64,000 nucleotides of DNA from Lentisphaerota bacterium (lineage in GTDB: Bacteria > Verrucomicrobiota > Kiritimatiellia > UBA8416 > JAIOPI01), in assembly GCA_021413965.1 (NCBI GenBank), contig JAIOPI010000019.1:4585-68584 (forward strand). The letters are read 5' to 3'. Shown piece after piece: positions 35,410 through 36,999 of the stretch; within the stretch, counting starts at the first letter, position 1; the number at the start of each line of letters is the position of its first letter. The translations under genes and the position numbers were made by a program. The notes under the pieces were generated by a model, which was not told the DNA's origin, did not search any database, and saw nothing but the letters and a program-made list of their open reading frames with translations.

Positions 35410-36999
35410 TTACTCCGACGCCTGGGGGACGAAGATCGACATGTCGACCTCCACGCCCCCCTGCCGCAACTCTTCGACAAACAGTGGGATGACGCCCGTG
35501 GCCGAGAAATTCCCGAGCACCTTCCCTTCCTTGTTGATCCCCGTGCGATTGAAGACGAAAAGGTCCTGCACGCGAATGTCGCCCTCGTACATGGGCAGCA
35601 TCTCTGCAATCGAGACGATCTTGCGCGTGCCGTCGGAGAACCGGCTGATCTGCACGATGATGTGCACAGCCGAGGCGATCATCTCGCGCACCGCCTTCAG
35701 GGGCAGTTCCATGCCCGACATCAGCACCATGGCCTCCATGCGGCGGACGGCGTCGATCGGCGTGTTGGCATGCGCGGTCGTCAAGGAGCCGTCGTGGCCC
35801 GTGTTCATGGCTTGCAGCATGTCGAGCGCCTCGGCGCCACGACATTCGCCAACCACGATGCGGTCCGGGCGCATGCGCAAGGCGTTGCGTACCAGGTCGC
35901 GAATGGTCACGGCGCCCTTGCCCTCGATGTTCGGCGGGCGCGTCTCCAGCCGGACCACCTGGTCCTGCGGCAGGCTCAACTCCGCCGAATCCTCGATCGT
36001 GATGATGCGCTCGCCGTCCGGGATGAAGGAGGAGATGATGTTGAGCAGGGTGGTTTTGCCCGAACCGGTGCCGCCGGAAATCAGCGTGTTCCGGGAGAAA
36101 ATGGCGCACAGCCGCAGAAACGCCGCCATGGGATCGCTCAGCGCCTTGAACGCCAGCAGGTTGTCGATGTTCATGCGCCGTTTGGGGAATTTGCGGATGG
36201 TGACGGTGGGGCTGTCCAGGGCCAGCGGCGGGATGATGGCGTTCACACGCGACCCGTCCGCGAGACGCGCATCCACCATCGGGCTGCTTTCGTCGATGCG
36301 GCGGCCGATCGGGCCCACAATCCGCTCGATGGCCGTCAGGACTTCGGTCTTGCCGAGGAACTTCTGGGTCGACAGCTGCAGCTTGCCGCTGCGCTCGATA
36401 TAGATCTTTTCAGGCGCGTTCACCATGATTTCCGTCACCGTATCGTCGGCGAGCAAATCCTCGAGCGGCCCCAGGCCCAGCGCGGCGTCGATGACGGACT
36501 TCTTCAAGGCGGCATGGTCAAACTGAACGGGGATTTCCTTGCGGCGCTGGTGCAACAGCCGTTCCAGCACGTCCATGGCCTTCGTCCGCAGGGAGGCGTC
36601 GGCCATCTGCGTGGCGGTGAGCTGCTTGAGGTTCAGCTCTTCAATCAACTGCGTGTGCAGGGAGCGCAGCACCTCGGCCAGGGATGCCTCGCGCTGGCCG
36701 GCCAGCGCCTCCGCCGTCTCGGAAAACGTCAGGCGATAGCGGCCAATCTGGAACTCGTCCCCGGAGGCGAGGCGCTGCTGCACGATCTTGCGCCCGTTGA
36801 CCAGCGTGCCGTTCGTGCTGCCCAAGTCCTGCAGCCAGCAGGCCTTGTCGCGCCGCACCATCTGGGCGTGCTTGGAGGAAACTTCGCGGTCATGCAGAAT
36901 GACGTCGCACTCGATGGAGCGGCCGATCAGCAGGCGCTCGCCTCCCATATCCACCTGGGTGCCTTGATATTCGCCGCCATCTACGACCAAGACCGCCAT
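35410..36999 (-). CDS. cpaF: Flp pilus assembly ATPase CpaF/TadA with N-terminal FHA domain fusion
   Basis: Residues 1-95 form an FHA domain (LLIGRSIECDVILHDREVSSKHAQMV...STNGTLVNGRKI). The remainder is a VirB11/CpaF-type ATPase (Walker A GGTGSGKTT, Asp box, His box). GGAG RBS. Confidence 0.85.
   Translation of the reverse strand: MAVLVVDGGEYQGTQVDMGGERLLIGRSIECDVILHDREVSSKHAQMVRRDKACWLQDLGSTNGTLVNGRKIVQQRLASGDEFQIGRYRLTFSETAEALAGQREASLAEVLRSLHTQLIEELNLKQLTATQMADASLRTKAMDVLERLLHQRRKEIPVQFDHAALKKSVIDAALGLGPLEDLLADDTVTEIMVNAPEKIYIERSGKLQLSTQKFLGKTEVLTAIERIVGPIGRRIDESSPMVDARLADGSRVNAIIPPLALDSPTVTIRKFPKRRMNIDNLLAFKALSDPMAAFLRLCAIFSRNTLISGGTGSGKTTLLNIISSFIPDGERIITIEDSAELSLPQDQVVRLETRPPNIEGKGAVTIRDLVRNALRMRPDRIVVGECRGAEALDMLQAMNTGHDGSLTTAHANTPIDAVRRMEAMVLMSGMELPLKAVREMIASAVHIIVQISRFSDGTRKIVSIAEMLPMYEGDIRVQDLFVFNRTGINKEGKVLGNFSATGVIPLFVEELRQGGVEVDMSIFVPQASE

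What the first reader, a model, noticed from the sequence alone, without database searches (positions are those of the whole stretch)
35410..36999. FHA domain fused to the N-terminus of the CpaF secretion ATPase
Residues ~1-95 form a complete FHA module upstream of an otherwise standard CpaF ATPase. This places phospho-threonine recognition directly on the motor, a plausible direct on/off switch for pilus extension.
Basis: seen in the sequence. Interest (0 to 1): 0.65.

Follow-up and report, generated by a model that had tools for sequence, protein, structure and literature searches.

The report
FHA-fused CpaF pilus motor
The gene really encodes a Tad-pilus motor ATPase with an intact phosphothreonine-reading FHA domain on its N-terminus. 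This architecture is already described (class III CpaF, Myxococcus KilF), so the window holds a new PVC-phylum member of a known, still mechanistically unexplained, kind.

Summary
Observation confirmed. The minus-strand CDS 35410-36999 (529 aa) has a canonical FHA domain at aa 1-95. Pfam scores it at E 1.7e-18. The AF2 model has pLDDT 93 and matches the GarA/OdhI FHA at TM 0.89. The phosphothreonine (pThr)-contact set R27/S41/H44/N63 is intact and near-invariant in 53 homologues. Residues 114-521 align to solved Caulobacter CpaF (E 1.7e-117).

The architecture is not new. It is "class III CpaF" (Yen 2025) and is also that of M. xanthus KilF (Seef 2021). Nearly all of the best 120 homologues carry it.

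The window is from a Lentisphaerae MAG and holds a Kil-like, FHA-rich Tad operon: Flp, CpaB, secretin, FHA-CpaF, TadB, TadC, FHA-TM protein, 2xFHA-TPR protein. A second paralogous ATPase lies nearby. A transmembrane tandem Hanks kinase and a PP2C lie 17-25 kb away, and their orthologues abut the tad locus in a Verrucomicrobia relative.

New comparative points:
- FHA-CpaF loci lack TadZ (0 genuine hits in 17, versus 47/49 plain loci).
- Motors that keep the SxxH loop co-occur with extra FHA proteins (6/6 versus 1/7).
- Beta/gamma-proteobacterial fusions have degenerate pockets.

Most likely the FHA acts as a phospho-dependent docking or gating module in place of TadZ. This is inferred, not shown.

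The parts
35410..36999 (-). FHA-CpaF (TadA) motor ATPase, 529 aa. FHA domain is aa 1-95 (nt 36715-36999). Helical linker and three-helix bundle are aa 96-175 (nt 36475-36714). N-terminal domain plus catalytic ATPase domain are aa 176-529 (nt 35413-36474). Stop codon at 35410-35412.
39517..39789 (-). Flp-type major pilin, 90 aa, with the G/MTEY processing motif. First gene of the operon.
   Evidence: Pfam Flp_Fap weak hit; sequence motif; homologues in L001 and L002.
38575..39432 (-). CpaB/RcpC (SAF + RcpC domains).
   Evidence: syntenic in L001, L002, L003 and L004.
37147..38547 (-). Secretin CpaC/RcpA, 466 aa (pilus N-terminal region, weak BON, Secretin). This is the same domain list as KilC.
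34544..35407 (-). TadB platform protein (T2SSF). Its ATG lies 2 nt after the CpaF stop, and its RBS lies inside the end of cpaF.
33751..34533 (-). TadC platform protein (T2SSF).
32270..33754 (-). FHA - single TM (aa 175-193) - PsbP-like periplasmic domain protein, 494 aa. The start overlaps the tadC stop by 4 nt. GR and SxxH are kept; the Asn is replaced by His.
   Evidence: A gene with the same FHA architecture sits directly after tadC in L001-L004. Full-length similarity is shown only for L001 and L002. Analogous to MXAN_4649.
30262..32262 (-). 2xFHA + TPR protein, 666 aa, with a possible TM at aa 242-260. Both FHA domains have full GR/SxxH/NG pockets. Last gene of the operon. KilD/MXAN_4648-like domain content.
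40052..41233 (+). Second, FHA-less CpaF-type ATPase paralogue (393 aa), divergently transcribed from flp.
   Evidence: Pfam T2SSE. Falls in a 100%-bootstrap clade with accessory ATPases of other FHA-rich loci.
25913..29367 (+). Prepilin peptidase (25913-26464) followed by TadE-like (26468-27451), TadG-like (27358-28725) and TadF-like (28738-29367) minor pilins.
   Evidence: Pfam Peptidase_A24 and TadE. The TadG-like and TadF-like assignments rest on N-terminal pilin-like motifs only.
53901..60470 (-). Candidate writer. A 2189-aa receptor-type protein: tandem Hanks Ser/Thr kinase domains, a P/A/K-rich linker, one TM (about aa 1058-1084) and about 1100 aa outside the cytoplasm.
   Evidence: Pfam Pkinase, 2 stretches, E 4e-89. 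Topology. 41.5% identity over 573 aa to the kinase adjacent to the tad locus in L001. The link to the motor is inferred.
60504..62564 (-). Candidate eraser. PP2C phosphatase (aa 1-250), one TM (aa 337-355) and a Ser/Thr-rich tail, immediately upstream of the kinase.
   Evidence: 46.7% identity to the PP2C adjacent to the tad locus in L001. The link to the motor is inferred.

Best explanation
The gene encodes the motor ATPase (CpaF/TadA) of a complete Tad/Flp pilus system. It is of the published 'class III' type, in which an FHA domain is fused to the N-terminus.

In this Lentisphaerae genome the motor belongs to an FHA-rich, TadZ-less, Kil-like Tad operon.

Proposed mechanism:
1. A membrane-spanning tandem Hanks kinase and its paired PP2C phosphatase write and erase phosphothreonine marks on an envelope-associated partner. 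Candidates are the kinase itself, the FHA-TM protein, the 2xFHA-TPR protein or the TadB/TadC platform.
2. The motor's FHA domain, whose pThr pocket is intact, docks on that mark.
3. The CpaF hexamer therefore engages the platform only where and when the signal is present.
4. In this way the FHA takes over the recruitment and localisation job that the ParA/MinD-like TadZ does in ordinary Tad systems, and makes it signal-dependent.

Shown here: domain identity, fold, pocket residues, operon structure, synteny and co-occurrence statistics.

Inferred: pThr binding, the identity of the kinase and of the ligand, and the docking or gating consequence.
For: Identity of the protein:
- FHA identity and fold.
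- Pocket residues R27/S41/H44/N63 are present, and are invariant or conserved at 90% or more in 53 homologues.
- CpaF core aligns to the solved CpaF structure.

Operon:
- Genes from flp to the 2xFHA-TPR gene are tightly packed, with overlapping or 2-nt junctions where checked.
- The core order CpaB, FHA-CpaF, TadB, TadC and then an FHA protein recurs in Verrucomicrobia and delta-like MAGs. The secretin and the genes that follow differ between loci.

Kinase and phosphatase:
- A kinase and a PP2C are in the window.
- Their orthologues (41.5% and 46.7% identity) directly flank the tad locus in L001. A kinase and a PP2C also lie inside locus L012.

Statistics from an independent genome sample:
- Extra FHA proteins: 7/13 fused versus 2/37 plain loci, p 5e-4.
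- Hanks kinase within 10 kb: 4/13 versus 0/37, p 0.003.
- TadZ: 1/17 fused loci, and that single hit is a sigma-54 response regulator, versus 47/49 plain loci, p 3e-12. None in the 64-kb window.
- The FHA-less motors that fall among the FHA-CpaFs in the tree are TadZ-TadA fusions, so the N-terminus is a recurrent site for a localisation module.
- An intact SxxH loop in the motor FHA goes with extra FHA proteins: 6/6 versus 1/7, p 0.005.

Literature:
- KilF carries an FHA, kil clusters are FHA-rich, and NG-KilF is recruited to prey contact sites (PMC8460266).
- The Kil system assembles at prey-contact sites 'through unknown spatial determinants'.
Against: - No experiment on any FHA-CpaF domain was found in seven literature searches.
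- In this window the kinase and PP2C are 17-25 kb from the operon, separated by unrelated genes (DnaJ, Mla). Hanks kinases are, from general knowledge, common in PVC genomes, so proximity alone is weak evidence.
- The closest relative examined (L002) has no kinase within 10 kb.
- The enrichment tests are not corrected for phylogeny. The FHA-fused motors probably form one clade, so the TadZ anti-correlation may reflect a single ancestral event.
- Beta/gamma-proteobacterial FHA-CpaFs keep the domain but have lost the Ser and Asn contacts. The domain therefore has some phospho-independent role in those lineages, and that role could also be the main one here.
- The ligand is unknown.
Confidence: 0.55

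Rival explanations
1. The FHA domain works without phosphorylation, as a structural or oligomerisation domain. It would stabilise the hexamer or bind the platform or the other FHA proteins constitutively, as the FHA-like domains of T3SS SctD/YscD do.
For: - FHA-CpaFs of beta/gamma-proteobacteria and some other lineages have replaced the Ser (by Ala or Gly) and the Asn (by Gly, Phe, Val or Ile) of the pocket, yet retain the domain.
- Pfam's Yop-YscD_cpl model scores as well as the FHA model.
- YscD structures appear among the fold matches at TM about 0.75.
- The accessory ATPases of L001 and L002 have an N-terminal FHA-like stretch with none of the pocket residues.
Against: - In this protein and its 52 aligned relatives the pocket is intact and near-invariant.
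- The closest solved relatives are bona fide pThr binders: GarA, OdhI, DgcB, FhaA and EmbR.
- An intact pocket correlates with FHA-rich context, and FHA-fused loci are enriched for Hanks kinases.
Confidence: 0.2
2. GarA/OdhI-like self-recognition switch. The FHA binds a phosphorylated Ser/Thr within CpaF itself or in a neighbouring subunit, for example S106 at the FHA-helix junction (Thr in most close homologues). This would lock or release the hexamer: a true on/off switch on the motor rather than a docking device.
For: - The best sequence and structure matches, GarA and OdhI, work by intramolecular pThr binding, and DgcB by binding the phosphorylated tail of another DgcB copy (established knowledge; the matches are).
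- An E-A-[T/S] motif just before helix 96-122 is conserved in the PVC-type homologues.
Against: - There is no N-terminal tail; the FHA starts at residue 2.
- The conserved Ser/Thr sits at a helix N-cap position, where Ser and Thr are favoured for structural reasons.
- The motif is not conserved outside the PVC clade.
- This model does not explain the loss of TadZ or the extra FHA proteins.
Confidence: 0.15
3. The fusion is an annotation or assembly artefact, or a decaying remnant with no function.
For: None found. The source is a metagenome-assembled genome, which in principle can carry chimeric joins.
Against: - It is one uninterrupted ORF with a good RBS.
- The same architecture at 44-76% identity occurs in nearly all of the best 120 homologues, from many independent assemblies and isolate genomes.
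- The pocket residues are conserved.
- The full-length AF2 model is confident.
Confidence: 0.01

Closest known systems
Class III CpaF (Yen et al. 2025, Nat Commun, PMC12019362; example A. xylosoxidans E3HIW0)
   Same: Same domain order: N-terminal FHA, linker, three-helix bundle, NTD, catalytic ATPase domain. About 52% identity to the A. xylosoxidans core over 232 trimmed residues.
   Different: - That paper places class III mostly in betaproteobacteria. This protein is from a Lentisphaerae MAG.
- The linker here is short and helical rather than a long disordered region.
- The pThr pocket is fully canonical here. In the four beta-proteobacterial fusions I sampled (Thauera, Burkholderiales, Quisquiliibacterium, Acidithiobacillus) the Ser and Asn contacts are lost.
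- The beta/gamma loci carry no additional FHA proteins.
KilF and the Kil Tad-like predation system of Myxococcus xanthus (Seef et al. 2021, PMC8460266; Herrou et al. 2025, PMC12075869)
   Same: - FHA-fused motor, 63% identity to KilF over 352 trimmed core residues.
- An FHA protein next to the platform genes and an FHA+TPR protein. MXAN_4649, MXAN_4648 and KilD correspond to window 32270-33754 and 30262-32262.
- The gene order CpaB, TadB, TadC, FHA, FHA-TPR appears to be shared, judging from the MXAN locus-tag numbering.
- The secretin has the same domain list as KilC.
- No TadZ.
   Different: - One contiguous operon here, against two clusters in Myxococcus.
- A second paralogous ATPase is present here; Kil is described as a single-ATPase system.
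- The phylum differs. Kil-like systems were proposed to be restricted to Myxococcales, Bdellovibrionales and Bradymonadales.
- The 2xFHA-TPR protein may be membrane-anchored, whereas KilD is predicted to be cytoplasmic.
- Tip minor pilins were not compared.
- No functional evidence for killing.
- The tree is unresolved at depth.
T6SS threonine-phosphorylation pathway (PpkA kinase / PppA phosphatase / Fha1) of Pseudomonas aeruginosa
   Same: Same logic: a transmembrane Hanks kinase, a PP2C phosphatase and an FHA protein gate assembly of an envelope nanomachine in response to contact or membrane cues. Seef et al. cite it as the analogy.
   Different: The machine is different. There the FHA is a separate scaffold protein that is itself phosphorylated. 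Here the FHA is part of the motor ATPase. No homology beyond the shared domains was tested.
TadZ/CpaE and the TadZ-TadA fusion (TadZA) of Bdellovibrio (bioRxiv 10.64898/2026.07.08.737194)
   Same: An N-terminal or partner module that positions the Tad motor. The TadZ part of TadZA binds the polarity hub RomR. TadZ-fused motors fall among the FHA-fused motors in my tree.
   Different: TadZ is a ParA/MinD-like ATPase, unrelated in fold to FHA. FHA-CpaF loci lack it.
GarA/OdhI FHA regulators of Actinobacteria
   Same: Closest solved FHA domains: 36-37% identity, TM 0.89, with identical pocket motifs GR, SxxH and NG.
   Different: These are stand-alone small metabolic regulators with a phosphorylatable N-terminal tail. 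They have no relation to pili.

Membership tests
FHA domain (Pfam PF00498) | Profile match above the curated threshold | tested here: met
   67.2 bits against a cut-off of 20.7, E 1.7e-18, aa 24-86.
FHA domain (Pfam PF00498) | Beta-sandwich fold of the FHA type (classically 11 strands) | tested here: met
   AF2 domain model has pLDDT 93.2 with ten DSSP strands over aa 3-93. Foldseek TM 0.89 and rmsd 1.0 A to the GarA FHA; 118 PDB matches at E<=1e-3, and the 50 listed are all FHA or FHA-like (YscD-type) domains.
FHA domain (Pfam PF00498) | pThr-contact residues: Arg (b3-b4 loop), Ser and His (b4-b5 loop), Asn (b6-b7 loop) | tested here: met
   R27, S41, H44 and N63 are present. H44 is invariant and the others are conserved at 90% or more in 53 homologues.
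FHA domain (Pfam PF00498) | Actual binding of phosphothreonine peptides | not testable with these tools
   Needs ITC or peptide arrays with the purified domain.
CpaF/TadA Tad-pilus ATPase | T2SSE/PilT-VirB11-like ATPase core, alignable to solved CpaF including the three-helix bundle, NTD and CAD | tested here: met
   PF00437 E 3e-58. Residues 114-521 align to CpaF entry 9e24 residues 89-494, E 1.7e-117. Walker A GGTGSGKT and other motifs are invariant.
CpaF/TadA Tad-pilus ATPase | Encoded with Flp pilin, CpaB/RcpC, secretin, TadB, TadC and a prepilin peptidase | tested here: met
   All are present in the window.
CpaF/TadA Tad-pilus ATPase | Partner TadZ/CpaE ParA-like ATPase in the locus (typical of canonical Tad systems) | tested here: not met
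   No TadZ-like ORF in the 64-kb window, nor a genuine one in 17 FHA-CpaF loci, against 47/49 plain loci.
Class III CpaF (Yen et al. 2025) | N-terminal FHA domain preceding the CpaF core | tested here: met
Class III CpaF (Yen et al. 2025) | Intrinsically disordered region between the FHA and the three-helix bundle | tested here: inconclusive
   Here the FHA runs straight into helix 96-122. pLDDT is 60-74 over aa 100-140, and there is no Pro/Ala-rich insert of the kind seen in more distant homologues.
Kil system (M. xanthus Tad-like killing apparatus) | FHA-fused motor plus several FHA-domain proteins in the cluster, including an FHA+TPR protein and an FHA protein beside the platform genes | tested here: met
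   This is domain-level correspondence only; orthology of the accessory proteins to KilD or MXAN_4649 was not tested, for lack of those sequences.
Kil system (M. xanthus Tad-like killing apparatus) | Single ATPase | tested here: not met
   No TadZ is present, but a second CpaF-type paralogue lies at 40052-41233. It is conserved in related loci.
Kil system (M. xanthus Tad-like killing apparatus) | Motor falls in the KilF clade | tested here: inconclusive
   63% identity to KilF, but 58-63% to eight other references too. Deep nodes of the NJ tree have 3-33% bootstrap.
Kil system (M. xanthus Tad-like killing apparatus) | Tip complexes of KilL/M/N minor pilins | not tested
   TadE-, TadG- and TadF-like genes are present at 26468-29367 but were not compared with the Kil tips.
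Kil system (M. xanthus Tad-like killing apparatus) | Contact-dependent prey killing | not testable with these tools
   The organism is uncultured.

The most novel reading that the evidence does not exclude
The locus is a Kil-type, signal-triggered Tad nanomachine outside the Myxococcota and Bdellovibrionota, in Lentisphaerae and Verrucomicrobia. In it, pThr-FHA docking has replaced TadZ as the device that decides where and when the motor engages the platform. The docking would be driven by a dedicated transmembrane tandem Hanks kinase and PP2C pair. A conserved second ATPase paralogue would share the work, for example extension versus retraction. If so, it would supply the 'unknown spatial determinant' of Kil-like assembly and suggest contact-dependent antagonism or predation in PVC bacteria.
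Probability: 0.2. Interest if true: 0.7.

Novelty: new member of a known kind. Interest (0 to 1): 0.38.

Why it matters
FHA-fused Tad motors are catalogued, but nobody has shown what the FHA does. For the Kil system the cue that makes the motor assemble at a contact site is explicitly stated to be unknown.

This locus and its relatives offer compact, single-operon versions with all the candidate players:
- a motor with an intact pocket;
- two FHA scaffold proteins;
- a paired receptor kinase and phosphatase;
- a second ATPase.

Three comparative patterns found here turn a vague 'signalling' idea into testable predictions:
- FHA and TadZ are mutually exclusive.
- An intact pocket goes with an FHA-rich context.
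- The pockets are degenerate in the proteobacterial fusions sampled.

The predictions can be tested in M. xanthus or in vitro. As a discovery of a new architecture, however, the finding is ordinary.

Tried and rejected
- Single-sequence phmmer with the window's FHA domains missed many FHA fusions that tblastn coverage implied. I replaced it with an iterated HMM.
- The first tree attempt with Biopython distances timed out. I redid it with numpy distances, NJ and 100 bootstraps. Only shallow clades are supported, so I make no claim about one versus several origins of the fusion.
- The afdb50 fold library was unavailable.
- The KilF sequence could only be obtained as trimmed core blocks from the source data of Seef et al.. 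The KilF FHA pocket itself was therefore not examined.
- NCBIfam has no dedicated model. The best hit, TIGR03819, is below its cut-off.
- I looked for a conserved phospho-acceptor in the linker. Only an E-A-[S/T] motif at a helix N-cap turned up, and it is restricted to the PVC clade. I consider this weak.
- The 813-aa and 418-aa proteins flanking the kinase and PP2C have no homologue in the related loci, so no larger conserved signalling module could be defined.
- The artefact or chimera explanation was rejected.
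Full report
**1. What is at the coordinates**

Bases 35410-36999 are a minus-strand CDS of 529 aa. 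The longer ORF reaches 37047, but the ATG at 36999 has a GGAG 7 nt upstream. The identical 529-aa protein is deposited as 'MAG: Flp pilus assembly complex ATPase component TadA [Lentisphaerae bacterium]' on a 149-kb contig (P0001). The window has 61-72% G+C, and coding frames were picked by GC3.

**2. The FHA domain is real and canonical**

- Pfam FHA covers aa 24-86 (E 1.7e-18, 67 bits against a 20.7 cut-off). The related Yop-YscD_cpl model covers aa 9-94.
- Against PDB sequences, the first 100 aa match GarA/OdhI (E 6e-11) and then DgcB, FhaA, Rv1747, Ki67 and Rad53 FHA domains.
- AlphaFold2 on a 36-sequence alignment gives pLDDT 93.2 with ten beta strands over aa 3-93.
- Foldseek against PDB gives GarA/OdhI at TM 0.89, rmsd 1.0 A and 36-37% identity. 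There are 118 matches at E<=1e-3, and the 50 listed are all FHA or FHA-like domains.
- The phosphate-contacting residues are present as G26-R27, S41-x-x-H44 and T62-N63-G64. In a 53-member alignment of full-length homologues G26, H44, D58, S61 and G64 are invariant. R27, S41, N63 and T65 are conserved at 90% or more.

**3. The rest is a standard CpaF**

- Pfam T2SSE covers aa 175-451.
- Residues 114-521 align to the cryo-EM and crystal CpaF of Caulobacter (9e24, 8rkd) at E 1.7e-117.
- The full-length AF2 model (pLDDT 84) shows the FHA, helices 96-151, an N-terminal domain and the catalytic domain.
- In this protein and its PVC relatives the FHA runs straight into a helix. More distant homologues carry a Pro/Ala-rich insert at that point.

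**4. Context**

The motor sits in a tightly packed minus-strand operon:
- Flp pilin (39517-39789)
- CpaB (38575-39432)
- secretin (37147-38547)
- FHA-CpaF (35410-36999)
- TadB (34544-35407; ATG 2 nt after the cpaF stop)
- TadC (33751-34533)
- an FHA-TM-PsbP-like protein (32270-33754; 4-nt overlap with tadC)
- a 2xFHA-TPR protein (30262-32262)

Other elements in the window:
- Divergent from flp is a second CpaF-type ATPase without an FHA (40052-41233).
- On the plus strand at 25913-29367 lie a prepilin peptidase and TadE-, TadG- and TadF-like minor pilins.
- All four FHA domains of the operon keep GR and SxxH. Three keep NG.
- Further along (53901-62564, minus strand) are a PP2C with one TM segment and a 2189-aa protein. 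That protein has tandem Hanks kinase domains, one TM segment and about 1100 residues outside the cytoplasm.
- No other kinase or PP2C was found among the ORFs scanned.

**5. Related loci**

- L001, a Verrucomicrobia MAG, has Flp, CpaB, FHA-CpaF, TadB, TadC, an FHA protein and a 2xFHA-TPR protein. Directly beside the second ATPase it also has a PP2C and an FHA-tandem-kinase protein.
- The window's kinase (41.5% identity over 573 aa, E 2e-127) and PP2C (46.7% identity, E 1e-53) are the best matches of those two genes.
- L002 has the same operon including the secretin, but no kinase within 10 kb.
- Delta-like MAGs L003 and L004 have the core plus two further FHA-ATPases.
- L012 has a kinase and a PP2C inside the locus.

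**6. Distribution**

- Nearly all of the best 120 homologues (44-76% identity) are annotated FHA+T2SSE. They include Verrucomicrobia, KSB1, Schekmanbacteria and Deltaproteobacteria MAGs.
- A truncated scan of species-representative genomes found FHA-including matches in Myxococcota, Deltaproteobacteria, Chromatiales, Oleiphilus, Acidithiobacillus, Thauera, Burkholderiales, Quisquiliibacterium, Spirochaetaceae, Lentisphaeria and Pseudobacteriovorax.
- The exhaustive representative search gives 6,599 clusters (50% identity) at E<=1e-30 for the family. The best 150 are a mix of FHA-type proteins (about 530-650 aa) and a type of about 700 aa.
- The four long-N-terminus motors I scanned with Pfam are TadZ-TadA fusions.

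**7. It is already known**

- Yen et al. 2025 define 'class III' CpaF as FHA plus a disordered region plus the core, 'mostly found in betaproteobacteria' (PMC12019362).
- Seef et al. 2021 state that the Kil ATPase KilF is 'itself fused to an N-terminal FHA domain'. They also note that FHA proteins are over-represented in the kil clusters, and they propose a T6SS-like phosphorylation cascade (PMC8460266).
- Reviews repeat this as an open question.
- I found no experiment on the FHA of any CpaF or KilF.

**8. Relation to Kil**

- Using the trimmed KilF core from the source data of Seef et al., the window's motor is 63% identical to KilF over 352 residues. It is 54-63% identical to eight other references and 44% to Caulobacter CpaF.
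- An NJ tree groups the window with L001 and L002 (100% bootstrap). It places all main FHA-CpaFs, KilF and the TadZ-fused motors in one region, but the deep nodes have only 3-33% support.
- The domain content and order of the accessory genes match the kil clusters. MXAN_4652 to 4648 read CpaB, TadB, TadC, FHA, FHA-TPR, and KilD is FHA-TPR.
- Kil-like systems were proposed to be restricted to Myxococcales, Bdellovibrionales and Bradymonadales. This locus would extend the type to the PVC group.
- The 'single ATPase' feature is not met here.

**9. New comparative observations**

These come from a small sample and are not corrected for phylogeny.

(a) Among genome-scan loci with at least 4 kb on each side, FHA-fused motors have:
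- extra FHA proteins in 7/13 loci versus 2/37 plain loci (p 5e-4);
- a Hanks kinase in 4/13 versus 0/37 (p 0.003);
- a second ATPase in 4/13 versus 0/37 (p 0.003).

(b) A TadZ/CpaE-like gene, checked by Pfam, is in 47/49 plain loci. It appears in only 1/17 fused loci, and that one hit is a sigma-54 response regulator. There is none in the window (p 3e-12).

(c) The motor FHA keeps GR, SxxH and [T/A]NG in the window, L001-L006, L025 and L026. In Thauera, Oleiphilus, Acidithiobacillus, Burkholderiales and others the Ser is Ala or Gly, and in all of those but one (L013) the Asn is lost as well. An intact SxxH goes with extra FHA proteins in 6/6 loci versus 1/7 (p 0.005).

(d) The second ATPase belongs to a 100%-supported clade of accessory ATPases found only in FHA-rich loci.

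**10. Interpretation**

The best-supported reading is that the FHA is a phospho-dependent docking or gating module. It would couple the motor to a Hanks kinase and PP2C signal, and it has taken the place of TadZ.

- Shown: identity, fold, pocket, operon, synteny and co-occurrence.
- Inferred: pThr binding, which kinase, which ligand, and the consequence for assembly.

The rivals cannot be excluded. They are a phospho-independent scaffold role, supported by the degenerate pockets in proteobacteria, and a GarA-like self-recognition switch.

'Direct on/off switch for extension' is one possible outcome, but nothing here specifically supports it.

**11. Verdict**

The architecture is already described. 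The window contributes a new PVC member of the Kil-like, FHA-rich subtype, plus several testable comparative leads. Interest is moderate to low as a discovery, and somewhat higher as a handle on an open mechanistic question.

Noticed in passing
window 40052-41233 (+): A second CpaF-type ATPase (393 aa, no FHA) is divergent from flp. It belongs to a 100%-bootstrap clade of accessory ATPases found only in FHA-rich Tad loci (L001, L002, L003, L005, L012, L025, L026). Its orthologues in L001 and L002 are about 100 aa longer, with an N-terminal FHA-like stretch that lacks every pocket residue. Tad systems are usually described as single-motor systems.
   Followed up: partly
window 1-64000; loci L005-L084: FHA-fused CpaF and TadZ/CpaE are mutually exclusive in the sample: TadZ is in 47/49 plain loci and in 0 genuine cases out of 17 fused loci, and there is none in the window. 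FHA-less motors that fall among the FHA-CpaFs in the tree are TadZ-TadA fusions (L052, L023, L032, L009).
   Followed up: partly
loci L007, L008, L011, L013, L016, L017, L020, L028, L029 (motor N-termini): The FHA-CpaFs of beta/gamma-proteobacteria and some other lineages have lost the Ser (to Ala or Gly) of the pocket, and in all but L013 the Asn as well (to Gly, Phe, Val, Ile, Ser or Ala). They may therefore not bind pThr. An intact SxxH tracks with additional FHA proteins nearby (6/6 versus 1/7).
   Followed up: partly
window 53901-60470 (-) and 60504-62564 (-): A 2189-aa receptor-like protein has two Pfam Hanks kinase domains (my iterated HMM suggests a third kinase-like stretch), a P/A/K-rich linker, one TM segment and a large domain outside the cytoplasm with no Pfam match. 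It is preceded by a TM-anchored PP2C with a long Ser/Thr-rich low-complexity tail. The flanking 813-aa (51410-53851) and 418-aa (62737-63993) proteins have no Pfam hit and no homologue in the related loci.
   Followed up: partly
window 32270-33754 (-): This FHA, single-TM, PsbP-like periplasmic domain protein has the same topology as T3SS SctD/YscD/PrgH ring proteins. Its FHA has His in place of the pocket Asn. A gene with the same FHA architecture follows tadC in L001-L004; full-length similarity is shown only for L001 and L002.
   Followed up: partly
window 30262-32262 (-): The 2xFHA-TPR protein has a hydrophobic segment at aa 242-260, so its TPR part may be periplasmic. The domain-analogous KilD is predicted to be cytoplasmic.
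   Followed up: no
proteins P0004, P0005, P0051, P0072; P0121-P0125: Metagenomic proteins of 800-1600 aa contain two to four CpaF-like stretches in tandem and score above the single-domain homologues. They may be covalently linked multi-ATPase motors or may be gene-call fusions.
   Followed up: no
loci L003 and L004: Delta-like relatives encode three FHA-fused CpaF-type ATPases in one Tad locus, next to a sigma-54 response regulator and a histidine kinase.
   Followed up: no
window 44309-44887 (-), 45259-46881 (+), 46892-50778 (-): Between the tad operon and the kinase lie a small caspase/CHAT-like protein, a DUF3943 protein and a complete MlaABCDE-type lipid-transport operon. There is also a DnaJ/CbpA-like gene at 41657-42649.
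   Followed up: no
window 22748-25204 (-) and 24678-25685 (+): An 818-aa TPR protein and a DUF1573/HYDIN-like Ig-domain protein lie just upstream of the prepilin-peptidase and minor-pilin cluster. The two ORFs as called overlap by about 500 nt, so one start is probably wrong.
   Followed up: no
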